64,000 bases of DNA from Candidatus Omnitrophota bacterium (lineage in GTDB: Bacteria; Omnitrophota; Gorgyraeia; Zapsychrales; JANLHA01): positions 154-64,153 of the forward strand of contig JAKLFA010000006.1 in NCBI GenBank assembly GCA_022711395.1, in the 5' to 3' direction. The notes beneath the pieces were generated by a model. That model saw nothing but the letters and a program-made list of their open reading frames with translations. It did no database searches and was not told where the DNA came from. Numbering within the stretch: the stretch's first letter is position 1; every line of letters starts with the position of its first letter. Positions 14,313 to 63,430 of this stretch are shown here, in pieces. A program made the translations under genes and the position numbers.

Positions 14313-14606
14313 CCAGCTTCCACAAAATAAAATCCCCGCCCGGATTCAGGCGGGGATTTTGTGTTTAGGGAAGCTGGGGTGTTGTGCGGATTTCCTTAGA
14401 TTCATTCAGAAAGATCTGCCCACCCCAGATAAAAAATGTCAGCTTTATGTGGGCTTTTTTTATTTGGGTCAAGTCGACTGAAGTCGAGTGGATTTACGGG
14501 CGACCGAGTCCGGCTTCCATAAAATAAGATTTCTCACCTGGAAATGAAAACTTCCACCGGATCGGGGACGGTTTAGTAGGAATGCGATAAAAAAGGAACT
14601 CTAAGA

Positions 14607-14789: not shown

Positions 14790-14933
14790 ATAAGGCGACT
14801 TTAGTCAAGGAAGAAGCCTCACAGCGGACGCCGGCTTTCACAAAATAAAATTTGCTAAAAAAATTTTCTTGACAAATTTAATTTATGTTTTATACTTGAG
14901 TAAACCAATAGGAATTATAGAGGTTGAGGGCGC

Positions 14934-15374: not shown

Positions 15375-15387
15375 GGAAGAACAAAAA

Positions 15388-15474
15388 ATGAACAGGCTTT
15401 TTAGTAGTATTCCTATGATGATGTGTTGTTTGGCGGTGTGCCGCCTTCGAGGTGGTGGAGGTCCGCCTGTGTAA
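15388..15474 (+). CDS. Candidate 28-aa Met/Cys-rich leader peptide (MNRLFSSIPMMMCCLAVCRLRGGGGPPV)
   Basis: RBS aaggaaga 8 nt upstream of the ATG. Three consecutive Met codons, then two Cys codons and a later Cys. The Met/Cys codons (15418-15427) pair perfectly over 10 bp with 15473-15482, and a terminator follows. Confidence 0.35.
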   Translation: MNRLFSSIPMMMCCLAVCRLRGGGGPPV

Positions 15475-15506
15475 CACATCATTCAATCAGTAGGCGCGAC
15501 GGGACA

Positions 15507-15552
15507 ACCCACTGCCAAGAAAGAGACACCAAAGGCAGTGGGTTTTTTATTT
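15507..15552 (+). terminator. Rho-independent terminator / attenuator hairpin
   Basis: acccactgcc ... ggcagtgggt followed by TTTTTTATTT. Confidence 0.65.
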
Positions 15553-15571
15553 ATAAATTCAGGAGGAGAAC

Positions 15572-15763
15572 ATGGGCTTAAATCAGAATTCAAAGAACAT
15601 TGTGAATGACGCAATCATCAAGGACATCAGCGATTCGATCCACGGGGTCAGTTTTGGGACAGTCACGATCATCATTCACAATTCAAAGATCGTCCAGATC
15701 GAGGTCTCTCAAAAGAGCCGCTTTGATGACGTCTGGATCGTTCAGGAAGGAGGTGGGATCTAA
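15572..15763 (+). CDS. YezD-family (DUF2292) small protein, commonly associated with sulfur metabolism
   Basis: Strong RBS caggaggag. The core GVSFGTVTIIIHNSKIVQIEVSQKSRF matches the YezD signature (G-S-V-I-H-D-K-V-Q-I-E). Confidence 0.65.
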   Translation: MGLNQNSKNIVNDAIIKDISDSIHGVSFGTVTIIIHNSKIVQIEVSQKSRFDDVWIVQEGGGI

Positions 15764-15890
15764 AGAATTTGATTGGTTTCGCCGCTGACCGGTTTTCCGG
15801 CAGCGTTTTTAAGACGAGAAAACAGGAAATTTGCAAGGCATCACCAGACCACTGGATCAGTCCTGCGCTTAAACTTGAAAGGGTGGGAAC

Positions 15891-41868: not shown

Positions 41869-43488
41869 ATGAACGGTTTCAGCATGCAGCGTGTTTTTTT
41901 TCTGGTTTTGATGGGCTCGGTCCTTTTGTCCGGATGCACGACGATGGGAGGGGTCGCGGACATGGCGGATCAGAACAATATGGCGGGACTTCGAGGCCTG
42001 GTCCAGCAGGGCGCGGACGTCAACACGCCTGGCCTTCTGGGGTTTACCGCGCTTCATAATGCGGCTTTAAAGGGAAATGCTGAGATGGTCAAATTTCTTC
42101 TGGACCATGGAGCCAACACTGAGGTCGAGGTGCTGAGCGTGACGCCTTTGCTGCAGGCGATCTGGAAGGGACACACGGAAGTGGTGCGCCTTCTGGTGGC
42201 AGCCGGGGCGAATGTCAACAGGGCGCAAAGTTCTCACGGCGCCACGCCGATGACATATTGCGGCGCTTACGGTAATGCTGAGATAGCCCGCATCCTAGTC
42301 GATGCCGGCGCCGATGTTCACGCTAAGGATAAACGGGGAAAGACCGCGGTTGATCTTGCCGTGGAATACAAGAATTTCGAAGTGCTCGCGGTCCTGCGGA
42401 AGGCCGGCGTGGATGTTCCTTATGCGGGCGACCTTCAAAAAGACACGATCATGGCGATCCTTTCAGAGGATCGGCCGAAAGTCCTGTCCCTGCTCGATCA
42501 AGGGGCGGACCCTAACACAAAGACAAAGTCCGGAAAAGGTCTTTTGGCCTACGCTGTTTCGTATCAATGGCCTGATGTGGTTGAAGCGCTGATCAAAAAG
42601 GGCGCGGATGTGACGGTCAAGGATGAAACGGGGTGGACATTGGCCATGACCGCAGCCCTGGAAAATCAGGAGGAAATCGTTAAGGCGTTTGAGCAAGCGG
42701 GGGTCCAGGTGCCGTATTGCGGGGACAAGCAGAAAGACCTTTTGATCGCCGTGCTGTGGGAGGATAAAGAGAAAGTTTCGGAACTGTTATCGCAGGGGGC
42801 GGACGTCAACGGCCGTTATCGTTACAATTCACCGTTGTTGAATTACGCGGCCGTAAAAAAAGACATCGGCATGGCGGAACTTCTTTTAGATAAAGGCGCG
42901 GACCCCAACAGTGTTAATTCGTACGGGATCGGGCCGCTGATCGCCGCTCTTAATAAAGGAAGCGACACGTCCCTGGCTAAATATTTACTGCAACGCGGGG
43001 CGAATGCCGATGTTAGAAATGGTCAGGGCGTCTCGGCCTTGAACTTTGCGGTGGTCACCGGGGATGCGGATTTGGTCCGCTATATGCTGGAGCGCGGGGC
43101 AAAGCCGGATATCACCTCGGTGCTTTTAGCCCAGGGGAAAGTGGCCGGCCATACGGACATCAATTTTCCAGAGATCGCCGAGCTTTTAAGGCCTGAGGTC
43201 TTGCGCCGTCAGATGCTCAGGGCACAGGCCGCTGTTGAGTCCGCCCAGTCGCCGGAAGATTACCGCAAGGCGATCGCGGAATATAATGTGGCCAAAGAGC
43301 TGGCGCCGGATTTGGCTGAAATTTATTACAATCTCGGCCTGGTGCAGGAACAGGCCGGGTTTTACGCTGACGCGATCGTCAACCTGCAGAAATACCTGCA
43401 GCTTTCTCCCGGTGCCGCGGATACTCAGGCCGTCACGGACATGATCTATAAGCTGGAATATAAAAGAGACCAGGTCCTTAAGCAGTAA
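41869..43488 (+). CDS. Ankyrin-repeat lipoprotein (about 12 ANK repeats) with a C-terminal TPR-like segment
   Basis: Lipobox LLSGC; repeated G-TPLH-A...G....V..LL..GADVN units throughout. Confidence 0.85.
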   Translation: MNGFSMQRVFFLVLMGSVLLSGCTTMGGVADMADQNNMAGLRGLVQQGADVNTPGLLGFTALHNAALKGNAEMVKFLLDHGANTEVEVLSVTPLLQAIWKGHTEVVRLLVAAGANVNRAQSSHGATPMTYCGAYGNAEIARILVDAGADVHAKDKRGKTAVDLAVEYKNFEVLAVLRKAGVDVPYAGDLQKDTIMAILSEDRPKVLSLLDQGADPNTKTKSGKGLLAYAVSYQWPDVVEALIKKGADVTVKDETGWTLAMTAALENQEEIVKAFEQAGVQVPYCGDKQKDLLIAVLWEDKEKVSELLSQGADVNGRYRYNSPLLNYAAVKKDIGMAELLLDKGADPNSVNSYGIGPLIAALNKGSDTSLAKYLLQRGANADVRNGQGVSALNFAVVTGDADLVRYMLERGAKPDITSVLLAQGKVAGHTDINFPEIAELLRPEVLRRQMLRAQAAVESAQSPEDYRKAIAEYNVAKELAPDLAEIYYNLGLVQEQAGFYADAIVNLQKYLQLSPGAADTQAVTDMIYKLEYKRDQVLKQ

Positions 43489-46332: not shown

Positions 46333-46351
46333 TGTTGAACGTGTTTTAACA

Positions 46352-46382
46352 AGGGCGGCTGTTTTACGGCCGCCCTTTTTTT
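46352..46382 (+). terminator. Rho-independent terminator
   Basis: gggcggc-tgttttacg-gccgccc followed by TTTTTTT. Confidence 0.65.
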
Positions 46383-46394
46383 GTGAAAATGTGT

Positions 46395-47789
46395 TCAACG
46401 GTCCTGGGGCCGGTCGATCGGGATGCCTTCGGCTTCAGCAAGCTGAAGCATTTTTTCCAGGACATCATCGCAGAACAGATACTGCAGATAGGTCGTGTTT
46501 TCCTCGAGGCTGGTCATGTTGGATTTGATGAATTGATCATGCAGGGAGATCTTTCCCCTGGACTCAAGATACTTGAGTTTCTCGATGATCCGGGGATATT
46601 CGTTCAAACTTTTGCCGTAAAGCAGTTCAATCGCGCGCAGAGAGACCTTTCCCATGGAAAGGCTGGTGAAAAGATAATGCACGATCTCTTTCTGAGTGTC
46701 GAGTTTGTAGCCTTTTTCAATCGGGAGTTTTCCTTCCCCAAGAGAGCGGATATATTCATCCACGTCGCCATGGTTAGAATAACGGTAGGCGCCTGTGATG
46801 TGTCCGTTGGCGAAGCCGCCGATGGCGATAAAGCTGCTGTTGAACTGGATCGCGTCCGATAACTGGATGTTGCGCGCCGCGGGGTCCAGGGAACGCTGGT
46901 GCCCGCCGGTGGCGTGATAGCCGTGCTCCCGCAACAGCGGCCTGGACAGCAGGTCCATCTCTTTGATGCGTTGTTCGTCTTCCGTTGAAAGCCGGTTGCC
47001 TGTTTTGGAAAAGACCGTGGTGATCATGGGCTTAAAGCGGTTGGTATGAAGGACATCCGGCTTCCAGGAAATGAGGGTCTTTAAATCGTTCATGAATGAA
47101 TCCACGGTCTGCCCGGGAATGCCCATCATAAGGTCAAGGCTGATGAACTTGATCTGGTGCTTGCGGGCCAGGTCAAAAATGTGTTTGACCTGCCGGGTGT
47201 CCTGGGGACGGTTGTTGATCTTCAACACAGCCGGGTCCAGGCTCTGCACCCCGAGCCCCAGGCGGTCGACGCCGTTTTTTTTGAGGATCTTGATCTTTCC
47301 CTCATTGAGAGTGGCCGGCCCTGTTTCAAAGGAGAATTGGACAGCTTTTTTTAGATTAAGCCCTGCGTGCAGGCGGTCAAAAAGTTCCTGCAACTGGCCT
47401 TCATTAAGCAAGGACGGAGTCCCGCCCGCCAGATAAACGGATTTGAACGGGGTCTTGTTAAGCAGGTGTGCGTAGATATCGATCTCTTTTAAGAGGGCGT
47501 CAAAATAATCATTGAGCTTGTGAACGGTCAAGTGCGAGGCGTGGCAGCAGAAAACGCACCGGTGCTGGCAGAAGGGGATGTTCAGATAAAGTCCGAGAGT
47601 TTTTTTAAAGATGTCGGAAGGGGAGCTGCGGATCTTTTCACGGAAGTCCGCTTCATCGATATTGTTCTGCCAGAGAAGGCGCGGCGGGTAATCCAGCGGA
47701 AGGCGGTTGGCCTCGCCCAGAAAATACGGGATGATATTGGCGAAGAGATGATCGTAGTTCTTTAAAGGTTTTTGCGGCGCGCCGGCCAT
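46395..47789 (-). CDS. HemN-like radical SAM enzyme (coproporphyrinogen-dehydrogenase family, or class C radical SAM methyltransferase / HemW-like)
   Basis: YLNIPFCQHRCVFCC (CxxxCxxC), GGTPS motif, HemN_C-like C-terminus; paralogous to the next gene. Confidence 0.8.
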   Translation of the reverse strand: MAGAPQKPLKNYDHLFANIIPYFLGEANRLPLDYPPRLLWQNNIDEADFREKIRSSPSDIFKKTLGLYLNIPFCQHRCVFCCHASHLTVHKLNDYFDALLKEIDIYAHLLNKTPFKSVYLAGGTPSLLNEGQLQELFDRLHAGLNLKKAVQFSFETGPATLNEGKIKILKKNGVDRLGLGVQSLDPAVLKINNRPQDTRQVKHIFDLARKHQIKFISLDLMMGIPGQTVDSFMNDLKTLISWKPDVLHTNRFKPMITTVFSKTGNRLSTEDEQRIKEMDLLSRPLLREHGYHATGGHQRSLDPAARNIQLSDAIQFNSSFIAIGGFANGHITGAYRYSNHGDVDEYIRSLGEGKLPIEKGYKLDTQKEIVHYLFTSLSMGKVSLRAIELLYGKSLNEYPRIIEKLKYLESRGKISLHDQFIKSNMTSLEENTTYLQYLFCDDVLEKMLQLAEAEGIPIDRPQDR

Positions 47790-47810
47790 GTCCTGTGCCC
47801 TCTTGTTCGG

Positions 47811-49169
47811 TTATTCGTTTTCTTTTATGAAGTTAAATATCCTTTGCCGGATATCATCGCAGAACAGATATTGGCAATATGTCAGCCATTCTTCCTGTGA
47901 AGCCATCAGGGATTTGATGTAATGTTCGCGGATCAGGAGCTTGCCGCGGGATTCAAGATAACGCAGCCTTTCAAGGATCGGGGTGAATGAATCCAGGGGG
48001 GCGTCGTAAAGCATCTCGACCGCGCGTTTGGAAACGGCCCCTTTCCAGAGCTGATTGAACAGATACGAGACGAGCTCTTTGGTCATGTCAAGGCGGATGC
48101 CGCGTTCGACCGGTAATCGTCCTTTTTTGACCGACTGGATGTATTCGTTCAAATTTCCGGAATTGGCGTAGCGCCAGGAGCCGGTCAAGTGGCTGTGGGA
48201 AAAAGGGCCCAGGCCGATGAAACTGCTGTTGAATTTAAAGGCGTCGGTAACGCCCAGGGTGTAGACTCCTGGTTTTAGCATGGCGGTGGAGTTGCCGGGT
48301 TTGTGCAGGTATCCGGCGAGGCTGAAAAGCTCCGCGGCCCGGGCGGCCATTTCTGCGATCCGTTTCAGGTCCGCGTCCGAGAATCGGTTGCCCATCCGGT
48401 AGAAAGATGTCAGAGATGAAGGGATGAACTCATAGACCGTGATCGAGGCCGGTTTCCATGACAGGACCTCGGTCAGGTCCGCGACAAAACTTTCCACGCT
48501 TTGCCCCGGCAGGCCGGTGATAAGGTCGATCTGGATGTTATCGATCCCCGCCGCGCGGATCGCGGCATGCATGTTTTTGATGTGGTCTTTCTCCTGGGTC
48601 CGATTGACCGTCCGCAGGACGTCCGGATCCATGCTCTGGATGCCGAGCGAGATCCTGTTGACGCCGAGATCACGCAAGATCCTTATTTTTCTTTCATTGA
48701 GGCTCGCGGGATGGGCTTCAAAGGAGATCTGCAAGGCGTTTTTTAAATTCAATTTTTGATGAAGGTTTTCCAGGAATTCCTTGAGTTGGCGCTCATCAAG
48801 GATCGAAGGCGTCCCGCCGCCGATCATGACCGAGCGAAGCGGCGCATGATCAAGCAGGCCGGCATAGAGGTCCATTTCTCCATATAAAGCCTCCAGAAAA
48901 TCATCGGTTCGTTTGGTGTCGATGTAGAACGGATATCGGCAGAAGGAGCAGCGCTCAGAACAGAACGGGATGTGGATATACAGCCCCAGCAGTTTGTTGA
49001 AGATGCTGTCCGGCCGTGCCTTGATGTCCGCCTGGATTTTGGCCTGGTCGATCCCGCTGTCCCAAAAGACGAACGGGGGATAGTCGATCATGGCCTTTCG
49101 GGAATCCCGGTTCATCCGACGGGCGAATTCGGCAAAGGTATGGTCATGGTTGTTGAAGTGCTCATTCAT
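47811..49169 (-). CDS. HemN-like radical SAM enzyme, paralog 2
   Basis: YIHIPFCSERCSFCRY, GGGTPS; the C-terminus YLESRGKLLI...YLFCDDI aligns with the paralog. Confidence 0.8.
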   Translation of the reverse strand: MNEHFNNHDHTFAEFARRMNRDSRKAMIDYPPFVFWDSGIDQAKIQADIKARPDSIFNKLLGLYIHIPFCSERCSFCRYPFYIDTKRTDDFLEALYGEMDLYAGLLDHAPLRSVMIGGGTPSILDERQLKEFLENLHQKLNLKNALQISFEAHPASLNERKIRILRDLGVNRISLGIQSMDPDVLRTVNRTQEKDHIKNMHAAIRAAGIDNIQIDLITGLPGQSVESFVADLTEVLSWKPASITVYEFIPSSLTSFYRMGNRFSDADLKRIAEMAARAAELFSLAGYLHKPGNSTAMLKPGVYTLGVTDAFKFNSSFIGLGPFSHSHLTGSWRYANSGNLNEYIQSVKKGRLPVERGIRLDMTKELVSYLFNQLWKGAVSKRAVEMLYDAPLDSFTPILERLRYLESRGKLLIREHYIKSLMASQEEWLTYCQYLFCDDIRQRIFNFIKENE

Positions 49170-49284
49170 AAACAGATCACGCTCGGATGTTTTGATCGTT
49201 TCACATAGTATAGCATAAGCGGTCCTGTTCCGAAGCGGCCCTTCAAATAAAGTCGGGCGGCCGTTCTGATCCGTAAAATGGGCC

Positions 49285-49313
49285 TTGTTGCAAAATGGAA
49301 GACGTAATATAAT
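49285..49313 (+). promoter_or_regulatory. Sigma-70-like promoter (TTGTTG-17-TATAAT) for the plus-strand radical SAM operon
   Basis: TTGTTG at 49285-49290 and TATAAT at 49308-49313 with a 17-nt spacer in the divergent intergenic region. Confidence 0.45.
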
Positions 49314-49350
49314 GCTTACGATTTAACATTCAACCCGTGGACGGGGCATT

Positions 49351-50451
49351 TTGAGTTCAAATCCAACCATTCAGAACAAAAGTGTTTTTCAGGCCAAGAT
49401 CGCTCTCACGAACAATTGCGTGCTGAGGTGCGAGTATTGTTTTGTCGAGAAACAGAAGCAGCTGAATGTCATGAGCGTCGGCGTCGCCCGGCAGGCCGTT
49501 GATCTGATCCTGGATAACGGGGAAGGCCAGAAGATCATCAAGGTCTATGGCGGAGAGCCGTTATTGTGTTTTGACCTTGTCAGGGAGATCACGGCGTATG
49601 TGAGGAAAAACGAGAAGGCAGAGGCTCCGGCGCAGATGAGTCTGTGCACCAACGCTGTCCTGCTTAACGAGGACCATTTGCGTTTTTTGAAGGAAAATCG
49701 TTATCAGCTGGCGATCAGTTTTGACGGATTAAAAGACACGCAGGACAAGCACAGGAAATTTCCTGACGGAAAAGGGACTTTTGACATCGTCACAAAGAAG
49801 TTCCCGTTGATCTTTCAGGTCATGGGGGCTAAGGATGTCGCCGCCAATTTATCGATCGTCCCTTCTGAAGCGAAGAACCTGTTTGATAATTTTGCTTATA
49901 TCCTTTCTTCGGGCTTCGCAACCGTAAATTTTGAGCCGGTGTTCGGATACAGGAGCTGGCAAAGGGAAGACCAGGAAACGTTCGTCGGCCAGATGAAGAA
50001 GATCATCAAATTTGTCCATGCCAATCTTCTGGAAGGGAAGTTTTTCTTCCTGGCGACGATCAACAGGGAGCTGAAATACAGGACGCTATCGAAGTTCGTC
50101 ACGGACCCCTGCCCTTTCGTGCAGTGCCTGGAAGTCCAGCCGGACGGGGACCTCACGCTGGTGCCGTTCATCCGCGATTTCGATAAGAACGTCGGGAACC
50201 AGTGTTTCGTAGGCAATCTTGAAAAGGGCGTCTTCAACGAAAAGTACCTGGTCTGCCGTTATTCCCCGGGGGATATCTGCCGGCAGTGCGTGAAGGAAAG
50301 CTTTTTTCAGGATGACAGCGCCGCCGGGAAGATCGTGACCTTGCGTAACATGTTTTCGATCGAATACGCCGAGCTGCTGATCAAGCTCGCGCAAAAGGAT
50401 GAACGGGTCCGTTCGTATATTGAACAGGCCAAAGGGCATATTTGTTTTTAA
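49351..50451 (+). CDS. Radical SAM enzyme with a C-terminal SPASM/twitch Cys-rich domain (anSME/NirJ-AhbC/D-like)
   Basis: TNNCVLRCEYCFVEK (CxxxCxxC), GGEPLL, C-terminal Cys cluster (CPFVQC, CRQC). The TTG start at 49351 is the only in-frame start before the motif. Confidence 0.75.
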   Translation: MSSNPTIQNKSVFQAKIALTNNCVLRCEYCFVEKQKQLNVMSVGVARQAVDLILDNGEGQKIIKVYGGEPLLCFDLVREITAYVRKNEKAEAPAQMSLCTNAVLLNEDHLRFLKENRYQLAISFDGLKDTQDKHRKFPDGKGTFDIVTKKFPLIFQVMGAKDVAANLSIVPSEAKNLFDNFAYILSSGFATVNFEPVFGYRSWQREDQETFVGQMKKIIKFVHANLLEGKFFFLATINRELKYRTLSKFVTDPCPFVQCLEVQPDGDLTLVPFIRDFDKNVGNQCFVGNLEKGVFNEKYLVCRYSPGDICRQCVKESFFQDDSAAGKIVTLRNMFSIEYAELLIKLAQKDERVRSYIEQAKGHICF

Positions 50452-50470
50452 CTTTTAGGATGCGGCCGGC

Positions 50471-51553
50471 ATGATTGAACGTTTATTGAACAAAAAAGTT
50501 TATAAGCTGCGGATCCTGACAACAACGAAGTGCAACTGCCGCTGTTCGTATTGCTTTGTTGAAAAAAAGGATGAGTTCGCCGACTATGATGTTCTGGAGA
50601 AAGGCGTGCGTTTTTTGGTCGACAGTGCCGGCGATAAAAAGCTCCTCACGCTCTACGGCGGCGAACCGCTCTTTGCTTATGAGAATGTTCAGCGGGTGAT
50701 CCCGTTCGCCAGGGAATACGCTATCAAGAAGCAAAAACGGCTGGTCATGGCGTTCGTGAGCAATTCGCTGCTGCTGAAAGAGGAGCATCTGAGGTTTTTG
50801 CAGAAGCAGGGCGTTCATTACATCACGTCATTGATCGGGTCCAAGAAATATCATGACGAAAAACGGCGCCCTGTGGACGGTAAAAGCTCTTATGACGCGG
50901 TGGCGGAAAAGGTCCCTTTGATCCAAAAGTACACGAAGGTGGAAGAGGCCGGCGTTTGTTTTTGTGTTTTTCCCGACCAGATCGAGGCGCTGTTCGATAA
51001 CTTCAAACATGTTTTGTCATTGGGATTTCGAAACCTGAACATGGAACCGATCCTGGATTACAAGCCCTGGACGAAGAGGGAAGACGAAATATTTTTGGCC
51101 CATTGCAAAAAGATCATCGTGGAGCTTTTTGCAAGCATCAAGCGGCGGGATTTTATCTATCTGCGCCCGATCAGCCTGGAGCTCGCCTATAACAAGCTTT
51201 CGGACAAGTTCGCCTCAAGCTGCCTTTTTAATTTCGGATGCGTCCTGTATCCGGACGGATCCTTGGTCATGACGCCTTGGGTCCCCAAAGAGACGCATGC
51301 CGTCGCCAATCTGCTGAAAGATGAGGTCTATCGTTTTGCGGACTGCTGCTTTCCGGAAAGCGGCGGGCTTTGCAAGGACTGCACCGGCCATTATTTTCCG
51401 AGGTGGTCGGATAAGCAGAAACAGCTGATGGCCCACCGGGTCTACATGATCTATCATAAGTTCTGCCTGGAGGCGGCAAATCTTATACGGAAAAAAGCGA
51501 AGACCGATCCTTTATATAAGGAATATCTGGGAAAAGTGCTGGCCCATACCTGA
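50471..51553 (+). CDS. Radical SAM/SPASM-domain enzyme, paralog of the previous gene
   Basis: TTKCNCRCSYCFVEK, GGEPLF, C-terminal CLFNFGC...CCFPESGGLCKDCTGH. Confidence 0.75.
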   Translation: MIERLLNKKVYKLRILTTTKCNCRCSYCFVEKKDEFADYDVLEKGVRFLVDSAGDKKLLTLYGGEPLFAYENVQRVIPFAREYAIKKQKRLVMAFVSNSLLLKEEHLRFLQKQGVHYITSLIGSKKYHDEKRRPVDGKSSYDAVAEKVPLIQKYTKVEEAGVCFCVFPDQIEALFDNFKHVLSLGFRNLNMEPILDYKPWTKREDEIFLAHCKKIIVELFASIKRRDFIYLRPISLELAYNKLSDKFASSCLFNFGCVLYPDGSLVMTPWVPKETHAVANLLKDEVYRFADCCFPESGGLCKDCTGHYFPRWSDKQKQLMAHRVYMIYHKFCLEAANLIRKKAKTDPLYKEYLGKVLAHT

Positions 51554-51598
51554 CGGCAGTCCATACGGAGACGCCTGCCTTATTCGGAAGCCTGTGAC

Positions 51599-52468
51599 AT
51601 GAACGTCCTTTTAAGAATAACCGACCAATGCAATCAGGATTGCTGCTTTTGTAATGTTTCATCTGATGAGAGCGTGCCGCTGGATGAGGCCATGCGGCGC
51701 GTCCGCCAGGCGAAAGACCTGCGCACTCTTTCGATCAGCGGCGGGGAGCCGACTTTAAATAAGGGACTTCTGGAACTGGTCCGGGAGGCCAAAAAGAATC
51801 CCGGCATCCAGTTCGTGAGCCTGCAGACCAACGCGGTCACGGCCGCGTCCTCGGATTATGCCCGGATGTTAAAGGAGGCTGGTCTGGATGAGGCGTTTGT
51901 CGCGCTTCACTCCCACCAGGAAAAACTGTCGAACGTGCTGACCGGTTCTCAACTTTGGCAAAAGACCGTTTCCGGAATTCAAAACCTGACGGCCGCCGGA
52001 ATAAAGGTCGTGATCAACACGGTCATCAATAAGGCGACGTATGAACAGCTTCCGGAATTCTGCCTGTTCGTAGGCAGGACCTTTCCGGATGTTAAGGAGA
52101 TCTGTTTTTCATTCATCCAGCCCCACGGACGGGCATGGAAGAACCGTTCGGCGCTCATCCCGCGTTACAGTGAGGTCGTGCCATTTTTGAAAAAGGCATT
52201 GGAATTTTGCGATGGCTGCGGGATCGCCTACTGCAACCCGTATTGCGGTTTTCCACTATGTTTGTTCCCGGCGCCCAAAAAATGTTCCAGCGAGTTTTTG
52301 GATTCTCCCAGGTCCTCTTCTGAAAAGGAGGGGGTTTCACTCGTAAAAAGGGACAAGGTCCAGGGGCCTGCTTGCCAGCACTGCGCAGAAAAGACCCGTT
52401 GCAACGGCGTGTGGAAAAAATACGCCGAGATCCATGGGTTTTCCGAACTGAAACCGTTCAAAAAATGA
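51599..52468 (+). CDS. Small radical SAM enzyme (289 aa) with a C-terminal auxiliary Cys cluster
   Basis: ITDQCNQDCCFC (C-x3-C-x2-C), SGGEPTL, C-terminal CNPYCGFPLC...CQHCAEKTRCNG. Confidence 0.7.
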   Translation: MNVLLRITDQCNQDCCFCNVSSDESVPLDEAMRRVRQAKDLRTLSISGGEPTLNKGLLELVREAKKNPGIQFVSLQTNAVTAASSDYARMLKEAGLDEAFVALHSHQEKLSNVLTGSQLWQKTVSGIQNLTAAGIKVVINTVINKATYEQLPEFCLFVGRTFPDVKEICFSFIQPHGRAWKNRSALIPRYSEVVPFLKKALEFCDGCGIAYCNPYCGFPLCLFPAPKKCSSEFLDSPRSSSEKEGVSLVKRDKVQGPACQHCAEKTRCNGVWKKYAEIHGFSELKPFKK

Positions 52469-52482
52469 AATTCAAGAGTTGG

Positions 52483-52523
52483 TTGACAGGGGAAGTTTTT
52501 TTTGTATAATGCACATATGTGCA
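52483..52523 (+). promoter_or_regulatory. Promoter TTGACA-16-TATAAT immediately followed by a 14-bp perfect palindrome TGCACATATGTGCA (candidate operator)
   Basis: -35 at 52483-52488, -10 at 52505-52510, palindrome at 52510-52523, then RBS aaggag and the DUF134 start. Confidence 0.5.
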
Positions 52524-52542
52524 AAACTATTAAGGAGTGTCT

Positions 52543-52839
52543 ATGCGTCCTAAAAAGACACGATGGGTAAAATGCGAGCCGGGAGAACGGTGTTTTCGTC
52601 CGCAAGGGGTTCGGGTGAAGGACCTGCAGGGGGTGGACCTGACGGTTGATGAATTTGAAGCGGTAAGGCTGGCGGACCATGAACGGCTCACGCAGGAGCA
52701 GATCGCTTTACAAATGAAGATCCATCGCTCCACGGTTTCAAGGATCCTGACCTCGGCCCACGGGAAAATTGCGGATGCGTTAGTGAATAAAAAGGCCGTC
52801 AAGGTTGAGGGCGGTTGTTGTAAATTCAGGGGGGCGTAA
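52543..52839 (+). CDS. DUF134 (UPF0251) predicted DNA-binding protein with N-terminal C-x5-C and C-terminal GGCC; first gene of the ars cassette
   Basis: CEPGERC ... [37 protein letters not shown] (sigma-70 region-4-like HTH) ... VEGGCC. It ends 1 nt before the ACR3 start. Confidence 0.75.
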
Positions 52840-52840
52840 T

Positions 52841-54007
52841 ATGCAGGAAAGAAATATGTCCGTTTTTGAACGGTATTTAACGCTATGGGTTGTTGCGTGC
52901 ATCGCGGCGGGAATATTTTTGGGCAAGGCCGCGCCCGGGGTGGCCAAGTCACTGGACGGATTTTCGATATTCGTCAACGGTGCGCCGGTGGTGTCCATTC
53001 CGATCGCGGTCTGTTTGTTTTTTATGATGTACCCGATCATGGTTAAGATCGATTTCGCTGAAGTCATTAAGGCGGGAAAATCCCCTAAGCCTGTCTGGCT
53101 GACCTTGTTTGTCAATTGGGCGGTCAAGCCGTTTACTATGTATGCGATCGCCTTGTTTTTTCTCGGGTTTTTATTTCGGGGTTTAATTGGCGTTGACGCT
53201 GTTGACTTTGTGAAACTTCCGCCGGGCTCGGATTGGGCGGTCGGCTCTGTCCACGGCTCCGGGACGGTTATCCTGCTGGAAGGCTTAAAAATGCTTCAGG
53301 TCCCTTTGTGGCGCAGTTATTTTGCAGGATGCATTTTGCTGGGCATCGCGCCGTGCACGGCCATGGTTTTGGTTTGGGGGTTTTTAGCTAAAGGCAATGA
53401 CGGACATACTTTGGTGATGGTCGCCATCAATTCGCTGACCATGCTGTTGCTCTACGGCGTCTTGGGTGGATTTCTTTTAGGGGTGGGCAAAATGCCGGTT
53501 CCCTGGGAGGCGCTTGTATTGTCAATCGCGATCTATGTCGCGCTTCCGCTGGTGGCCGGGTATCTTTCGAGAAAGTGGATCGTCTCCCGCAAAGGCATTG
53601 ATTGGTTCAATGAAAAATTTCTGCATGTCCTTTCGCCGGTCTCGATTATCGCGCTGTTGTTTACGCTGGTGCTTTTATTTTCGTTTAAGGGTGAGGTCAT
53701 TCTTGCACAGCCGCTCACGATCCTGTGGATCGCGATCCCGCTGTTTATTCAGACCTGTTTGATTTTTGCCATTACCTACTGGCTGGCGAAAAAATTGCGT
53801 TTGAGTTATGGAGACGCGGCGCCCAGCGCCATGGTAGGTGCGAGTAATCACTTTGAGGTCGCGATCGCCACTGCTACAATGCTGTTTGGGTTATCATCCG
53901 GCGCTGCCCTGGCAACGGTGGTGGGTGTTTTGATCGAGGTGCCGGTCATGCTGATGCTGGTCAAGATCTGTTTGAAGACGCAGGGGATGTTCCAGTATAA
54001 TGAATAA
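52841..54007 (+). CDS. Arsenite efflux permease (ACR3 family)
   Basis: FERYLTLWV start, 10 TM helices, ACR3 hallmarks ([11 protein letters not shown] with the conserved Cys, GYLSRKW). Confidence 0.85.
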
Positions 54008-54039: not shown

Positions 54040-54240
54040 ATGAAAATACTGGCCCATTTTATTATTTTCTTTGTGTTCGTTTTTGGCATTCACCGTTATC
54101 TGGTGCAAAAATCAGAAAAATGTGAAAATAAAGAGTGTGAATGTCCGATCAGAGAGAACCTGAGGGAGGGGTATCTGGTCGTTGGGGCGCTGTCATTGGC
54201 GGCGCTGTGCCTGATGGCCTTGATCGAGGTGGCGTTTTAA
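54040..54240 (+). CDS. Small two-TM membrane protein with a cytoplasmic C-x5-C-x-C motif
   Basis: 66-aa ORF with an aaggag RBS 9 nt upstream; [10 protein letters not shown] lies between two hydrophobic helices. Confidence 0.4.
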
Positions 54241-59542: not shown

Positions 59543-59820
59543 AATGGATTTTTAAAGTCGAGGGTATAATACCAAAAAACGTTAAAAAACAAAAGATTTT
59601 ATCGTTTTGAAATTCACATAAAAGAGATTATTTCCAAGATTGATTGTCATAAGGTTTGTCGTTATAATTTTTTCATATATTTTTTGAGAAAGCCCGACGT
59701 TGGGTTTGGCTTATGTGGCTTTGTGTGCCTGAGAGGATGTCGCGGCCCTGATATCAGTATTCTGGATCCAGTGTTCATGGAAAGAAAAAGCTGGCTTTGA
59801 AGACCAGGAGGTTTGTTGAA

Positions 59821-61635
59821 ATGAAGAGGTTTTTTGCTGCGATCAAGGATCGCATATCCGGCAAGGAGGTCCGGATGGCGCGTTTTGTGGGCCTCATGGC
59901 TTTGTTTGCGATACTAGCGCTTGCGTATGGCTGGCAGATCCTGAGGTTCAGGAACCATTTCGGCCTGCATGATTGGGATTTCACGTTTTTTCTTCATCAA
60001 TACTGGCACATCGCCATTTTTTCATTTAAACAGGTCCCGTTGTGGAATCCGTATATCTGCGGAGGGATGCCGTTCATCGGCCGGCCGGACGTAAGCGTTC
60101 TGCCGTTTCCGATCATTTTTGTTTCGTTGTTTGGCGTCATGGCCGGCCTGAGGATCATGGCGTTGTTTTATATCTTTCTGGCCATGACCGGGATGTTCTG
60201 TTTGTGCCGTTTTTTCAGAATAAAGACCTTGCCTGCGATGATCGCAAGCATTATTTTTTCCATGAACGGATGTTTCGCGCTGCGCGTCATGGCCGGGCAT
60301 CTGGGGTGGCTGTCGGCGGCCTATTTGCCCTGGATCTTTTTGTTTTATCTTAAAGGATTAAAGAAGGCGCGTTATGTTTTTTTGTCGTCGGTGTTTCTTG
60401 CCTTCACAGCCCTTGAAGGCTCGCATATCCTGATCTTTACGGCCGTCTTCCTATCGGTGTTCAGCTTTTTGTATTCGTTTCAGCAGAAGACGATCCGCCC
60501 GCTGTTGGCGTTGGCGCTGGCATTAATGTTCTGCGTGCTTTTTTCCGGGCCAAAACTTTTTCCGATGATCGAAATGATGTCGCGCTTTCCGCGGTTGACG
60601 GACGCGGGCTGGGCCGTTCCCTTGGGAAATTTATACGATATTTTTTTGGAGCGGGCGCAGCAGGACAATCTTTTTCAGCGCTTTATAAAAAATACGGCAT
60701 GGTGGGAGATCGGGGCCTATGTCGGCCTTGTCCCGAGCGTGTTGTTTGTCCTGAGTTTCAAAATGATCAAAAAACAATGGCCGCTCTTGTTGACGGCGGT
60801 GTTCATTTTGCTGATCGGGCTTGGAAATTTTTCCGGCTTCGCGCCGTGGACGGTTCTTCACAGCGGCCCGGTCTTTTCGAACATGCATATACCGACGAGG
60901 ATATTTATTGTTTTTGTTTTCCTGCTTTCGCTTTTGTGCGGTCTGTGTTTAAATTCGTTTGCCCCTAGAGGAGGCGGTCGGGAAGTATTTTTAAGGAACG
61001 CCTTTTTAATAGCTCTTTTTTGTTTTGTTGCCTGGGACCTGAGCGCTGTCAATTCCGCCTTCTTTGGGGAAAAGTTTTTCAGTCGGCTGAATGTGCTGCG
61101 AAAGCCTCTGTTTAAGGAGAATGCATTTTTTCAGGTGGAGCTTCCTCAGCAGTATCATAGCCTTTTTGGTGCGACGACGGGGGTATTCGCCCAGATCCTG
61201 CAGAATCACGGGGTCGTGGATGGTTACGAGGCCATTCCGGTCGAGCGAAACGCGGTCCCGTATAGCGGGCCGGATTACCGGGGGGAATTTCATCTTTTGG
61301 GCAGCTCGGGGAATGTTTCGCAGTCCTATTGGTCGCCCAATAAGCTTATTTTTCATTATGATATTCCATATCCCGATCTTTTGGTGGTGAACCAGAATTA
61401 TGATAAAAACTGGAGGACGTTCCCGCCTAAAATGGTAAAATCTCATGAGGGCTTGATATCCGTGGAGCTGGACCCCGCAGACCGGGGGATCATTTTATAT
61501 TATTTGCCGTATTCGTTCGTGCTTGGTGTTTTTTCGTTTTTCACAGGGGTCTTAGGCTGGATCTTTTTCAACAAAGCAGGCCTTGAATGGCAGGAAGGCA
61601 GGGTGCCTTTGGAGAAGGGCCGGGGAATGGATTAA
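59821..61635 (+). CDS. Large polytopic membrane protein (GT-C/YfhO-like candidate glycosyltransferase), tandem paralog A
   Basis: About 600 aa, more than 12 TM helices, conserved WNPYICGGMPFIGRPDVSVLPFPI loop; about 60% identical to the next gene. ATG at 59821 with a ccaggagg RBS. Confidence 0.65.
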   Translation: MKRFFAAIKDRISGKEVRMARFVGLMALFAILALAYGWQILRFRNHFGLHDWDFTFFLHQYWHIAIFSFKQVPLWNPYICGGMPFIGRPDVSVLPFPIIFVSLFGVMAGLRIMALFYIFLAMTGMFCLCRFFRIKTLPAMIASIIFSMNGCFALRVMAGHLGWLSAAYLPWIFLFYLKGLKKARYVFLSSVFLAFTALEGSHILIFTAVFLSVFSFLYSFQQKTIRPLLALALALMFCVLFSGPKLFPMIEMMSRFPRLTDAGWAVPLGNLYDIFLERAQQDNLFQRFIKNTAWWEIGAYVGLVPSVLFVLSFKMIKKQWPLLLTAVFILLIGLGNFSGFAPWTVLHSGPVFSNMHIPTRIFIVFVFLLSLLCGLCLNSFAPRGGGREVFLRNAFLIALFCFVAWDLSAVNSAFFGEKFFSRLNVLRKPLFKENAFFQVELPQQYHSLFGATTGVFAQILQNHGVVDGYEAIPVERNAVPYSGPDYRGEFHLLGSSGNVSQSYWSPNKLIFHYDIPYPDLLVVNQNYDKNWRTFPPKMVKSHEGLISVELDPADRGIILYYLPYSFVLGVFSFFTGVLGWIFFNKAGLEWQEGRVPLEKGRGMD

Positions 61636-61639
61636 ATCG

Positions 61640-63430
61640 ATGAGACTCATTCTGTTTTTTAAAAAAATGGTTTCCGGGAAAGAGGGCCGGGTAGCGCGTT
61701 TTGCGGGGCTCATGGCGCTTTTGGCGGGTCTGTCGCTTGTTTACGGCCGTAACCTTCTGAAATACAGCTATCATTTTGGTTTGTATGATTGGAATTTCTT
61801 TCTTTACCAGCATCAGTATTGGCACATTTCGCTTTTTTCCTTTAAGCAGCTCCCGTTATGGAACCCATATGCCTGCGGCGGGATGTCGTTCATCGGACGG
61901 CCGGATGTGAGCGTTTTGCCGTTTCCGATCATTTTTGTGACTGCGTTCGGAGCGCTTGCCGGCTTGAGGATCATGGCCGTTTTTTATATTTTTCTCGGCA
62001 TGACGGGGATGTTCTATGTGTGCCGGTATTTGAAGATCGGGATCCTGCCGTCTTTGATCGCGGGCGTTATTTTTTCCATGAACGGGGCTTTGGCGCTGCG
62101 GATCATGGCCGGCCATCTGGGTTGGCTGTCCGTGGCGTATTTGCCGTTCATAGTTCTGTTCTATTTAAAGGGCTTAAAAAAGTTTCGGTATCTGTTTTTG
62201 TGTTCACTTTTTCTTGCGTTCGTGGCGGCCGAGGGGTCGTATATCCTGATGTTCACGGCTGTCTTTCTATTTGTCTTCAGCGCGCTGTATGCGCTTCAGC
62301 AAAAAAGCCTGCGCCCGCTGTTGGCGCTGGGACTGACGCTGGCGCTTTGTGTTCTGCTTTCAGGGCCCAAACTGTTTCCGATGATCGAAATGATGTCCCA
62401 GTTTCCCCGGGGGACCGATGTCGGAAAGGCGATCCCCCTGAAGAACCTTTATAACATCTTTTGGGAACGCAATCAGCTGGGCAATCTTGCGTTCGCGTTC
62501 ATGAGGCCTTTGAACTGGTGGGAGTTCGGCTCGTATATCGGGATCGTTCCGGTAGTCATTTTTGTGCTGAGCTTTAAACTGGTCCGCAGGCAATGGCCGC
62601 TTTTGCTGACGGCGGTATGCGTGTTCGTGATCGGATTGGGAAATTTCTCCGCCCTCGCGCCGTGGACACTGCTCCACAGGGCCCCGGTTTTTTGCAACAT
62701 GCATATTTCTTCGAGGGTCTGGGTTATTTTCCTGTTTTTAGTGGCCTTGCTTTGCGGGCTTTGTCTGGATTCGTTCACCTTTAAGAGCAGGCGCGGGACA
62801 TATCTGAAGAACGTCCTGCTTGTGATCGTGCTGTGTTTTATTGCATGGGACCTGACCGCGGTCAGCTCACCGGTCTTTAAGAATCTTTTCCAGGAAGGAA
62901 GTTTTCGGCAAAAGCTGGTCTTGAAAGATCAGGCTTTCCGGCAAATCCGTGTTCCGGCTCAATACGCAGAGGTCTATGACGGCCTCTTTTTGATGTTCGC
63001 TCCGCTTTTGGAGAACGCGGGGGCCATTAACAGCTATGAGGCGATCCCCGTGAAGCGCAACGCTATGGCTTATGGGGAGCTCGGTTATCGGGGAGAGTTT
63101 TACCTTTTGAATCATTCCGGAAAAGTGTCGCAGCCGTATTGGTCGCCCAATAGGCTGGTTTTTCATTACGATATCTGGCGGCCCGATGTTCTGGTGGTGA
63201 ATCAGAATTATGATAAAGGCTGGAAGACATTCCCTCCCAGGGTGGTAAAATCCCACAAGGGCTTGATATCGGTGGAAATTGATCCGGCGGACAAAGGGAT
63301 CGTTCTGTATTATTTGCCGTGGAGCTTTGTGGCCGGCCTTTTGACCTGTGCGGCAGCCATGGCCGCCTGGGCTGTCATGATCAGAAAAAAAGTAGAGTGG
63401 AAAGGCCCTATGGGGAGCGGTCTTTGGTGA
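61640..63430 (+). CDS. Large polytopic membrane protein, tandem paralog B
   Basis: WNPYACGGMSFIGRPDVSVLPFPI; collinear similarity to paralog A along the full length; starts 5 nt after the paralog A stop. Confidence 0.65.
   Translation: MRLILFFKKMVSGKEGRVARFAGLMALLAGLSLVYGRNLLKYSYHFGLYDWNFFLYQHQYWHISLFSFKQLPLWNPYACGGMSFIGRPDVSVLPFPIIFVTAFGALAGLRIMAVFYIFLGMTGMFYVCRYLKIGILPSLIAGVIFSMNGALALRIMAGHLGWLSVAYLPFIVLFYLKGLKKFRYLFLCSLFLAFVAAEGSYILMFTAVFLFVFSALYALQQKSLRPLLALGLTLALCVLLSGPKLFPMIEMMSQFPRGTDVGKAIPLKNLYNIFWERNQLGNLAFAFMRPLNWWEFGSYIGIVPVVIFVLSFKLVRRQWPLLLTAVCVFVIGLGNFSALAPWTLLHRAPVFCNMHISSRVWVIFLFLVALLCGLCLDSFTFKSRRGTYLKNVLLVIVLCFIAWDLTAVSSPVFKNLFQEGSFRQKLVLKDQAFRQIRVPAQYAEVYDGLFLMFAPLLENAGAINSYEAIPVKRNAMAYGELGYRGEFYLLNHSGKVSQPYWSPNRLVFHYDIWRPDVLVVNQNYDKGWKTFPPRVVKSHKGLISVEIDPADKGIVLYYLPWSFVAGLLTCAAAMAAWAVMIRKKVEWKGPMGSGLW

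What the first reader, a model, noticed from the sequence alone, without database searches (positions are those of the whole stretch)
46395..52468. Five radical SAM enzymes in one divergent cluster (two HemN-like plus three SPASM/twitch-type) with no visible substrate peptide
Two paralogous HemN-like radical SAM proteins sit on the minus strand and three CxxxCxxC enzymes with C-terminal auxiliary Fe-S Cys clusters on the plus strand, sharing one 180-bp promoter region. I read every intergenic gap (47790-47810, 49170-49350, 50452-50470, 51554-51598, 52469-52542) for a sub-60-aa precursor ORF and found none. This points away from a classic RiPP cluster and towards cofactor or small-molecule chemistry. 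Candidates are an alternative (siroheme-dependent) heme route of the NirJ/AhbC/AhbD type plus HemW/HemN-like enzymes, an anaerobic maturase set, or an undescribed metabolite pathway. The cluster abuts an arsenic cassette that carries a methyltransferase. Radical SAM plus methyltransferase pairs are known in organoarsenical biosynthesis (the ArsS/ArsM and ArsL/ArsM logic), so an organoarsenical role is a speculative third possibility.
Basis: partly seen in the sequence, partly recalled or inferred. Interest (0 to 1): 0.75.

Follow-up and report, generated by a model that had tools for sequence, protein, structure and literature searches.

The report
Orphan five-enzyme radical SAM tailoring module
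An uncultured Omnitrophota bacterium carries five intact radical SAM enzyme genes whose nearest relatives all sit in peptide-maturing "His-Xaa-Ser" (HXS) clusters, but here the target peptide and core HXS genes are missing, so the enzymes most likely modify a peptide or protein encoded elsewhere.

Summary
Five radical SAM (rSAM) genes lie at 46395-52468. Two are HemN-like paralogues on the minus strand. Two are CteB/PapB-like enzymes and one is HxsC-like, all on the plus strand. They share a 181-bp divergent promoter region, and no precursor ORF is nearby.

None of the five reaches the curated score of any heme (HemN, HemW, AhbC/D, NirJ), sulfatase-maturase or known RiPP-maturase family.

The nearest relatives outside this lineage are informative. 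For the W3 and HemN-like families they lie in extended HXS clusters (HxsD, HxsD-like, HxsB, HxsA3 precursor) of Omnitrophota, Patescibacteria and Elusimicrobiota. W5-like copies occur in the same clusters, though W5's closest relatives do not. In archaea the three enzyme classes occur fused or adjacent.

The window, and 10 kb beyond it, lacks HxsA, HxsB and HxsD. A sister species keeps all five genes under purifying selection (dN/dS 0.07-0.14 for W2-W5) but places the W1-W4 block on the other side of the arsenic cassette.

The arsenic link is confined to this lineage: 40 related loci carry no ars gene, and the methyltransferase is generic and missing from the sister species.

Best reading: a precursor-less offshoot of an HXS-associated multi-rSAM peptide-tailoring module that acts in trans. 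The chemistry and the substrate are unknown.

The parts
46351..46377 (.). GC-rich hairpin followed by a T run, between the converging DUF748/AsmA gene and W1. Likely the terminator that bounds the cluster on the left.
   Evidence: 12-pair stem with 8 GC pairs, then TTTTTTGTG.
46395..47789 (-). W1: HemN-like rSAM protein, 464 aa. CxxxCxxC at C74/C78/C81. No conserved auxiliary cysteines and no HemN_C Pfam hit.
   Evidence: PF04055 at 2.2e-25. STM4012 169.5, HemN 167, HutW 150.7 and HemW 150.3 bits, all below their cut-offs. PDB HemN 1olt 2.6e-25 and NocN 1.6e-16. An exhaustive search finds only W2 above 36% identity.
47811..49169 (-). W2: HemN-like rSAM protein, 452 aa, 44% identical to W1. It lies 21 bp upstream of W1, probably in the same operon.
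   Evidence: The nearest relatives outside the lineage, P0123 and P0127, lie in HxsD/HxsB-headed clusters. dN/dS is 0.135 against the sister species.
49170..49350 (.). Divergent 181-bp promoter region between W2 and W3.
   Evidence: Two blocks are conserved with L017 (ATAGTATAGCA and GTAATATAATG). The small ORFs in this gap are not conserved.
49351..50451 (+). W3: CteB/PapB/anSME-class rSAM protein, 366 aa. It lacks an N-terminal peptide-recognition (RRE) domain. Conserved auxiliary cysteines are C254, C302, C310, C313 and C365.
   Evidence: PapB 136 bits against a cut-off of 340. The family profile hits CteB residues 93-411 at 1.5e-39. AF2 pLDDT is 82, with Foldseek TM 0.73 to CteB and 0.71 to anSME. 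The family is rare and, outside this lineage, is found with HxsA/HXS-cluster genes wherever neighbours are visible. dN/dS is 0.11.
50471..51553 (+). W4: paralogue of W3 (30% identity), 360 aa. Auxiliary cysteines are C251, C292, C301 and C304.
   Evidence: A W3-like plus W4-like adjacent pair recurs in HXS clusters. dN/dS is 0.086.
51599..52468 (+). W5: HxsC-like rSAM protein, 289 aa. CxxxCxxC at C11/C15/C18. Conserved C-terminal cysteines are C216, C221, C259, C262 and C268.
   Evidence: HxsC TIGR03977 gives 115.6 bits over its full length against a cut-off of 267.9; HxsC4 gives 100.7 against 500. AF2 pLDDT is 89, with only generic rSAM fold matches. W5-like copies occur in HXS clusters and are fused to a HemN-like domain in P0353. 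In the sister species W5 lies directly upstream of ACR3.
52483..52510 (+). Perfect sigma-70 consensus promoter (TTGACA, 16-nt spacer, TATAAT) upstream of the DUF134 regulator and ACR3. It marks the start of a separate transcription unit on the right.
   Evidence: 12 of 12 matches.

Best explanation
The five genes form one multi-rSAM tailoring module built from three enzyme classes: two HemN-like enzymes (W1, W2), two CteB/PapB/anSME-class enzymes that lack a leader-binding domain (W3, W4), and one HxsC-like enzyme (W5). The module is an offshoot of the accessory rSAM set found in extended His-Xaa-Ser (HXS, HxsA3-type) clusters of Omnitrophota, Patescibacteria and Elusimicrobiota. In those clusters it follows HxsD, an HxsD-like protein, HxsB and a His/Ser-rich precursor that ends in GGWC. 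In this Omnitrophota lineage the module has separated from that core. It is kept under purifying selection and is transcribed as two divergent operons (W2-W1 and W3-W4-W5).

Inferred mechanism, none of it shown here:
- Each enzyme reductively cleaves SAM at its CxxxCxxC cluster.
- W3 and W4 abstract hydrogen from a peptide or protein side chain and use an auxiliary cluster to form a cross-link, as thioether-forming relatives do.
- W1 and W2 carry out HemN-type two-SAM chemistry, most likely C-methylation, and may act as a pair.
- W5 adds an HxsC-type modification.

The substrate is a ribosomal peptide or protein encoded elsewhere in the genome.
For: Shown:
- All five are rSAM proteins with intact motifs.
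- Auxiliary cysteines are conserved in W3, W4 and W5.
- The W3 and W4 hit lists are dominated by peptide or protein maturases. The W3 profile hits CteB at 1.5e-39, and the fold matches CteB and anSME at TM 0.71-0.73.
- Where the contig shows neighbours, all 5 genome loci and nearly all ~20 informative metagenome loci with a W3 relative outside this lineage also carry an HxsA-like precursor, a Cys-rich secreted protein, HxsD/HxsB or another HXS-cluster gene.
- In L007 these partner genes pass the NCBIfam cut-offs for HxsD, HxsD_rel and HxsB. HxsA3 falls just short, at 59.8 against 65.
- The nearest W2 relatives outside the lineage are also in such clusters. L020 holds two HemN-like, two W3/W4-like and two W5-like genes.
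- Fusion evidence links the classes. P0338 and P0339 are HemN-HemN tandems. P0353 fuses a W5-like domain to a HemN-like domain, and it sits next to a 1318-aa protein with a W3-class-like module and three W5-like modules.
- dN/dS against the sister species is 0.07-0.14 for W2-W5.
- The divergent promoter boxes are conserved.
Against: - No substrate has been identified. HxsA, HxsB and HxsD are absent from the window and from 10 kb beyond it.
- Every family score is far below its curated cut-off.
- In the sister species W5 is separated from W1-W4 by the ars cassette, and it shows much lower synonymous divergence (dS 0.49 against about 1.7). W5 may therefore have a different history or role.
- A 56%-identical W5 relative stands alone.
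- Archaeal and deltaproteobacterial multi-rSAM loci with W5-like genes show no HXS core in the sequence retrieved, so the module need not always act on HxsA.
- The W5 fold matches are generic and include lipid and cofactor enzymes.
Confidence: 0.5

Rival explanations
1. Composite neighbourhood. W1-W4 form one four-gene module, while W5 belongs functionally to the adjoining ACR3/ArsC cassette. On this reading the 'five-enzyme cluster' is partly an accident of gene order in this species.
For: - In sister species L017 the order is W5-ACR3-s69-ArsC-DUF134-NifX-like-MntP-W1-W2-W3-W4-MatE, so the W1-W4 block moved as a unit while W5 stayed beside ACR3.
- W5 and ACR3 are 93% and 92% identical between the species, against 67-76% for W1-W4. 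dS is 0.49 and 0.91 against about 1.7.
- A 56% W5 relative stands alone with no other rSAM gene nearby.
Against: - W5-like genes co-occur with W3-like and HemN-like genes in many HXS clusters.
- A W5-like domain is fused to a HemN-like domain in P0353.
- In the window W5 follows W4 after 45 bp, and a perfect promoter sits between W5 and the cassette.
- No ars gene accompanies W5-like genes in 40 other loci.
- Even in L017 all five genes stay within about 10 kb of each other.
Confidence: 0.2
2. The product is not a peptide. The module builds or modifies a cofactor, tetrapyrrole, lipid or other small molecule, which would explain why no precursor gene is present.
For: - There is no precursor in cis.
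- The HemN-like enzymes resemble tetrapyrrole-handling families.
- W5's best solved relatives are the lipid synthase Tes, MoaA, PqqE and BlsE.
- Archaeal and deltaproteobacterial multi-rSAM loci show no HXS core in the retrieved sequence.
Against: - All heme-pathway models score 6- to 12-fold (AhbC/D, NirJ) or about 2-fold (HemN) below cut-off.
- W3 and W4 belong by sequence and fold to the peptide/protein-modifying SPASM class.
- W3 orthologues are consistently adjacent to a precursor.
- No other tetrapyrrole, lipid or cofactor gene lies in the neighbourhood.
Confidence: 0.15
3. Organoarsenical biosynthesis. The rSAM enzymes and the nearby methyltransferase would act on arsenic, following ArsS/ArsM or ArsL/ArsM logic.
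For: W5 is adjacent to a true ACR3 and an ArsC-like gene in two species. A methyltransferase lies in the cassette in the window.
Against: - The methyltransferase has no ArsM-level match (best ArsM-type hit 30 bits against a cut-off of 510), and it is absent from the sister species.
- ArsL is 428 aa with its motif at residues 194-201 and a single cluster (PMC8552651). W5 is 289 aa with its motif at residues 11-18 and five further conserved cysteines.
- No ArsS model appears among the best 25 families for any of the five proteins.
- No ars gene occurs in 40 related loci.
Confidence: 0.04
4. Decaying remnant. The five genes are leftovers of a lost HXS cluster and no longer function.
For: The core genes and the precursor are missing.
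Against: - All motifs are intact.
- dN/dS is 0.07-0.14 at saturated dS for W2-W4.
- The set is retained in two species that are only about 70% identical in these proteins.
- The apparent frameshift in L017 W1 is a run of N in the assembly, not a mutation.
Confidence: 0.03

Closest known systems
HXS (His-Xaa-Ser) system: HxsA, HxsB, HxsC, HxsD. An antiphage system in Pseudomonadota in which HxsB/HxsC mature the periplasmic effector HxsA (PMC13128918).
   Same: W5 aligns over the full length of the HxsC model. The nearest relatives of the W3 and HemN-like families lie in clusters that pass the HxsB, HxsD and HxsD-like cut-offs and encode an HxsA3-type precursor, and W5-like copies occur there too.
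   Different: The window has no HxsA, HxsB or HxsD. W5 scores 115.6 against the 267.9 cut-off. The described system has four genes and is 99.7% Pseudomonadota. This locus has five rSAM genes in an Omnitrophota genome and includes HemN-like enzymes that the described system lacks.
CteB / PapB (SCIFF and ranthipeptide thioether-forming rSAM-SPASM maturases) and anSME
   Same: These are the best sequence and fold matches for W3 and W4. They share the rSAM core and a C-terminal Cys-rich auxiliary-cluster domain.
   Different: Identity is only 18-22% in the structural alignment. W3 and W4 lack CteB's N-terminal peptide-binding domain (the match starts at CteB residue 93). Only 4-5 auxiliary cysteines are conserved, rather than the seven of a full SPASM motif. 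There is no SCIFF or ranthipeptide precursor and no sulfatase nearby.
HemN-like rSAM enzymes: the coproporphyrinogen dehydrogenase HemN, and class C rSAM methyltransferases such as NocN/NosN and ChuW/HutW
   Same: W1 and W2 share the HemN core and an N-terminal extension with a DYPP motif that may correspond to HemN's N-terminal segment (not verified here). Their best PDB hits are HemN and NocN.
   Different: All family scores are about half the cut-off. There is no HemN_C Pfam hit. The pair forms an isolated clade with nothing above 36% identity outside the W1/W2 group. Their relatives lie in HXS-type or multi-rSAM clusters, not in heme or thiopeptide clusters.
ArsL/ArsM and ArsS/ArsM organoarsenical pathways
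   Same: An rSAM gene lies next to an ars operon.
   Different: The rSAM architecture differs, there is no ArsM-level match, and the association is confined to this lineage.

Membership tests
HXS system (Haft and Basu; PMC13128918) | HxsA precursor or effector with His-Xaa-Ser repeats in the locus | tested here: not met
   A six-frame regex search found only one two-unit match, inside an unrelated long ORF. tblastn with three HxsA3 peptides gave nothing below E = 0.1. No HxsA family hit appeared among 61 small ORFs. Pfam shows no HxsD among the genes called in the next 10 kb of the contig.
HXS system | HxsB (TIGR03978, cut-off 370 bits) | tested here: not met
   W3 scores 91.5 bits and W4 83.8 bits. 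The true HxsB of L007 scores 495.5.
HXS system | HxsC (TIGR03977, cut-off 267.9 bits) | tested here: not met
   W5 scores 115.6 bits, E = 1.9e-33, aligned over model positions 29-290 of 292. It is a homologue but not an equivalog.
HXS system | HxsD or HxsD-like small protein | tested here: not met
   tblastn with three HxsD and four HxsD-like queries gave no hit below E = 0.3 in the window.
HemN (oxygen-independent coproporphyrinogen III oxidase) | TIGR00538 at or above 324.95 bits, plus the HemN_C domain | tested here: not met
   W1 scores 167 and W2 170.8 bits. PF06969 is not detected.
HemW heme chaperone | TIGR00539 at or above 205.4 bits | tested here: not met
   W1 scores 150.3 and W2 162.9 bits.
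ChuW/HutW class C rSAM methyltransferase | TIGR04107 at or above 400 bits | tested here: not met
   W1 scores 150.7 and W2 152.5 bits. Methyltransferase chemistry itself cannot be tested with these tools.
Siroheme-dependent heme / heme d1 route (AhbC, AhbD, NirJ) | TIGR04546, TIGR04545 and TIGR04051 at or above 650, 500 and 515 bits | tested here: not met
   W5 scores 51.3, 44.5 and 45.0 bits. W3 and W4 do not list these families among their best 25. No ahbA/B or other tetrapyrrole genes were seen among the annotated neighbours.
Anaerobic sulfatase-maturing enzyme | TIGR03942 at or above 349.45 bits, plus a sulfatase substrate gene | tested here: not met
   W3 scores 75.4 and W4 69.0 bits. No sulfatase domain occurs among the genes from about 40 to 73 kb of the contig.
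PapB-type ranthipeptide maturase | NF047865 at or above 340 bits, plus a Cys-rich precursor | tested here: not met
   W3 scores 136.1 and W4 110.7 bits. No precursor was found.
SPASM/twitch auxiliary-cluster domain | C-terminal conserved cysteine set able to bind one or more extra [4Fe-4S] clusters | tested here: inconclusive
   Conserved cysteines are present in W3, W4 and W5, and the W3 fold overlays the SPASM enzymes CteB and anSME. However, Pfam PF13186 does not hit, and the full seven-Cys motif is not present in W3 or W4. Cluster binding itself cannot be tested here.
ArsL / ArsS organoarsenical rSAM enzymes | ArsL architecture (about 428 aa, motif near residue 194, single cluster) or the ArsS model, with a partner ArsM | tested here: not met
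   W5 is 289 aa with its motif at residues 11-18 and five extra conserved cysteines, unlike ArsL as described in PMC8552651. ArsS is not among the top 25 families for any of the five proteins. The methyltransferase has no ArsM-level hit.

The most novel reading that the evidence does not exclude
The five enzymes are a free-standing radical SAM assembly line that no longer depends on an HXS precursor. There are two versions of this reading. In the first, they tailor an unconventional substrate in this same region, for example the conserved 66-69-aa two-helix membrane micro-protein with a KCExKECxCP loop encoded between ACR3 and ArsC. That would tie radical peptide chemistry to a metal or arsenic stress operon. 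In the second, together with the archaeal fused versions, they define a new multi-rSAM pathway whose product is not a ribosomal peptide.
Probability: 0.12. Interest if true: 0.8.

Novelty: new variant of a known kind. Interest (0 to 1): 0.45.

Why it matters
HXS was shown to be an antiphage system only in 2026, and it has been described as a four-gene unit found almost only in Pseudomonadota. This locus led to much larger HXS-type clusters in Omnitrophota, Patescibacteria and Elusimicrobiota that carry up to a dozen rSAM genes. It also showed that three accessory enzyme classes travel together, are fused or adjacent in some archaea, and here persist without the HXS core.

If the module acts in trans on a peptide or protein, it would give a compact five-gene handle on uncharacterised rSAM chemistry: two unclassified HemN-like enzymes, two leader-domain-less CteB-like enzymes and an HxsC-like enzyme. 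It would also bear on how these very small-genome, uncultured lineages build modified surface or defence peptides.

For genome annotation, the practical point is that these genes should not be named heme, sulfatase-maturase or arsenic enzymes.

Tried and rejected
- **Heme route (HemN, HemW, AhbC/D, NirJ).** Rejected on curated scores.
- **anSME with a sulfatase.** Rejected on score and on the absence of a sulfatase gene.
- **Antiphage families in PADLOC.** Only weak generic viperin-type rSAM hits; uninformative.
- **Precursor in the W2/W3 gap.** The 26- and 28-aa ORFs there are not conserved in the sister species.
- **HxsA-like, HxsD, HxsD-like, Cys-rich p302, p263 and p395 partner genes in the window.** None found.
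- **C-terminal GGWC-type ORF ends.** None found.
- **Intergenic small ORFs across the whole 64 kb, checked for Cys/His/Gly/Ser-rich composition.** Nothing convincing.
- **W1 pseudogene in the sister species.** The frame break coincides with a run of N, so it is an assembly gap.
- **General ars linkage of W5.** Rejected from the contexts of its 56%, 42% and 37% relatives and from 40 other loci.
- **W5 structure prediction and fold search.** The model is good, but only generic rSAM-core matches came back, so the substrate class could not be inferred.
- **Literature search for extended HXS or multi-rSAM clusters in Omnitrophota or candidate phyla.** Nothing specific found in the held library.

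Full report
**What is there**

The interval 46395-52468 holds five ORFs. I call them W1 (46395-47789, minus, 464 aa), W2 (47811-49169, minus, 452 aa), W3 (49351-50451, plus, 366 aa), W4 (50471-51553, plus, 360 aa) and W5 (51599-52468, plus, 289 aa).
- Each hits Pfam Radical_SAM and nothing more specific, and each carries a CxxxCxxC motif.
- W1 and W2 are 44% identical. W3 and W4 are 30% identical.
- W2-W1 are 21 bp apart. W3, W4 and W5 are 19 and 45 bp apart.
- The two sets diverge from a 181-bp gap.
- A strong hairpin at 46351-46377 closes the left side. A perfect TTGACA-16-TATAAT promoter at 52483-52510 opens a separate unit on the right.
- GC content is unremarkable.
- The sequence comes from a Candidatus Omnitrophota genome recovered from anaerobic-digester and activated-sludge metagenomes.

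**Family assignment**

No protein reaches any curated NCBIfam cut-off.
- W1 and W2 score about 150-171 bits against STM4012, HemN, HemW and HutW, where the cut-offs are 205-400.
- W3 and W4 score best against PapB (136 and 110 bits; cut-off 340). The next hits are almost all peptide or protein maturases.
- W5 scores best against HxsC (115.6 bits over the whole model; cut-off 267.9).
- AhbC, AhbD and NirJ give 45-51 bits against cut-offs of 500-650. anSME gives 69-75 bits against 349.

Against solved structures:
- W1 matches HemN and the class C methylase NocN.
- The W3 family profile matches CteB at 1.5e-39, starting at CteB residue 93. This means W3 lacks CteB's N-terminal peptide-binding domain.
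- W5 matches Tes, MoaA and PqqE only weakly.
- An AlphaFold model of W3 (pLDDT 82) overlays CteB (TM 0.73), anSME (0.71), ChlB, SkfB, TigE and SuiB, which are all peptide or protein modifiers.
- The W5 model (pLDDT 89) gives only generic rSAM-core matches.

Conserved extra cysteines support auxiliary clusters in W3, W4 and W5 but not in W1 or W2. Pfam's SPASM model does not hit any of them.

**Relatives and their neighbourhoods**

All three classes are rare.
- W3 has about two dozen 90%-identity clusters above 39% identity among 5.8 billion, and five loci in 185,579 species genomes.
- W5 has 90 hits in all.
- An exhaustive search with W1 against 1.84 billion representatives finds only the W2 cluster above 36% identity.

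Outside the window's own lineage, W3 relatives sit in a recurring cluster wherever the contig is long enough to show it. The usual order is: HxsD, a 66-71-aa HxsD-like protein, HxsB, another SPASM-class rSAM, a precursor, a Cys-rich secreted protein, then the W3-like and W4-like pair, a 263-aa protein, several W5-like genes and a membrane protein. The precursor has a conserved Lys-rich leader, a hydrophobic segment and a His/Ser-rich core ending in GGWC.

In L007 these partners pass the NCBIfam cut-offs for HxsD, HxsD_rel and HxsB, and come close for HxsA3. These are therefore true, enlarged HXS systems.

Independently, the nearest relatives of W2 outside the lineage (P0123 and P0127) are also inside HxsD/HxsB-headed clusters. 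The Omnitrophica locus L020 contains two HemN-like, two W3/W4-like and two W5-like genes, the same enzyme types as the window.

The characterised HXS system is a four-gene antiphage unit in which HxsB and HxsC mature HxsA (PMC13128918).

**Fusions**

- P0338 and P0339 (about 900 aa) are tandem HemN-like fusions. Their C-terminal half is closer to W1 and their N-terminal half marginally closer to W2, which mirrors the W2-then-W1 gene order.
- P0353, from an archaeon, joins a kinase-like domain, a W5-like domain and a HemN-like domain.
- P0353 sits next to a 1318-aa protein that holds a W3-class-like module and three W5-like modules.

These fusions and adjacencies are independent evidence that the three classes work together.

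**What is missing here**

The window has none of the following:
- a His-x-Ser repeat ORF;
- a tblastn match to HxsA, HxsD, the HxsD-like protein or the other non-rSAM partners; the HxsB query matches only the W genes, weakly;
- a GGWC-ended ORF;
- a precursor-family hit among 61 small ORFs in 45.9-53 kb.

The next 10 kb of the same contig also shows no HxsD or further rSAM gene in the precomputed Pfam annotation. The small ORFs in the divergent gap are not conserved in the sister species, whereas two promoter-like blocks are.

**Sister species and the arsenic cassette**

In GCA_964550155.1 (L017) the order is W5-ACR3-s69-ArsC-DUF134-NifX-like-MntP-W1-W2-W3-W4-MatE. In the window it is W1-W2-W3-W4-W5-DUF134-ACR3-s76-ArsC-DUF134-methyltransferase-NifX-like-MntP-MatE.
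- The W1-W4 block therefore moves as a unit, while W5 stays beside ACR3.
- The apparent frameshift in L017 W1 is a run of N.
- dN/dS is 0.135, 0.11, 0.086 and 0.07 for W2 to W5, so the genes are under purifying selection.
- dS is about 1.7 for W2-W4 but 0.49 for W5 and 0.8-0.9 for the cassette, which indicates a mosaic history.
- ACR3 is genuine.
- The methyltransferase is a generic class I enzyme and is absent from L017.
- W5's 56%, 42% and 37% relatives have no ars neighbours.
- None of the cassette genes occurs in 40 other loci (418 kb) that carry W-like genes.
- ArsL differs from W5 in architecture.

**Conclusion**

The most economical reading is a precursor-less offshoot of the accessory rSAM set of enlarged HXS clusters, still functional and acting on a peptide or protein encoded elsewhere. 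The chemistry I propose is inference from family resemblance only: cross-linking by W3 and W4, HemN-type methylation by W1 and W2, and an HxsC-type step by W5.

Three other readings remain open:
- The main rival is that W5 belongs with the ars cassette and the five-gene unit is partly accidental.
- A non-peptide product cannot be excluded, because related archaeal and deltaproteobacterial multi-rSAM loci show no HXS core.
- The heme and organoarsenical ideas are not supported.

The locus is a new variant of a known kind. It is moderately interesting in itself, and more so as a pointer to the enlarged HXS clusters of uncultured phyla.

Noticed in passing
window 54040-54240 (+); L017 4680-4889: A 66-69-aa protein is encoded between ACR3 and ArsC. 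It appears from its sequence to have two hydrophobic helices, joined by a conserved loop KCExKECxCP. It is 62% identical between the two Omnitrophota species and matches no Pfam or NCBIfam family. It is a small Cys-motif protein close to thioether-type rSAM enzymes, so it is a speculative substrate candidate.
   Followed up: partly
window 51599-54007 versus L017 2566-4658: W5 and ACR3 are 93% and 92% identical between the two species, while flanking genes are 58-85% identical. dS is 0.49 and 0.91, against about 1.7 for W2-W4. This suggests recent exchange or a different history for this segment.
   Followed up: partly
window 52483-52510 (+): A perfect 12/12 sigma-70 consensus promoter (TTGACA, 16-nt spacer, TATAAT) lies directly upstream of the first DUF134 regulator gene. 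This copy of the regulator is absent from the sister species.
   Followed up: no
L007 1-6452; L019 1-331; L023 4107-5015: Several enlarged HXS or multi-rSAM clusters lie directly downstream of type IV pilus genes (secretion ATPases, pilins with N-methyl motifs, prepilin peptidase). In the archaeal-looking locus L023 the equivalent neighbour is an archaeal-type flagellin/pilin gene. This may hint that the modified product is linked to the cell surface or to pili.
   Followed up: no
L011 526-6423; L023 5314-16077; L049 7473-16010: Some loci hold very large arrays of W5-like rSAM modules. L011 has six copies ahead of HxsD, L023 has seven, and an archaeal locus has them fused into 974-aa and 1318-aa proteins, one with an N-terminal RIO/APH kinase-like domain.
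   Followed up: partly
window 4001-4188 (+): A cobalamin riboswitch (Rfam RF00174, 44.2 bits against a gathering score of 31.5) lies upstream of a TonB-dependent receptor gene at 4345-6342.
   Followed up: no
window 59797-63430 (+): Two tandem paralogues of about 600 aa, 60% identical to each other, have no Pfam domain. The pair is also present in the sister species.
   Followed up: no
window 31770-35623 (+): A NuoF-like flavoprotein gene is followed by a group A6 NADH-dependent [FeFe] hydrogenase (795 bits against a cut-off of 765). This fits a fermentative anaerobic lifestyle.
   Followed up: no
window 14154-15890: About 1.7 kb after tRNA-His contains no ORF of 100 aa or more and no Rfam match at gathering score.
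   Followed up: no
window 41869-43488 (+): A 539-aa bacterial protein is made of multiple ankyrin repeats plus C-terminal TPR repeats. It is conserved in position in other assemblies of the same species.
   Followed up: no
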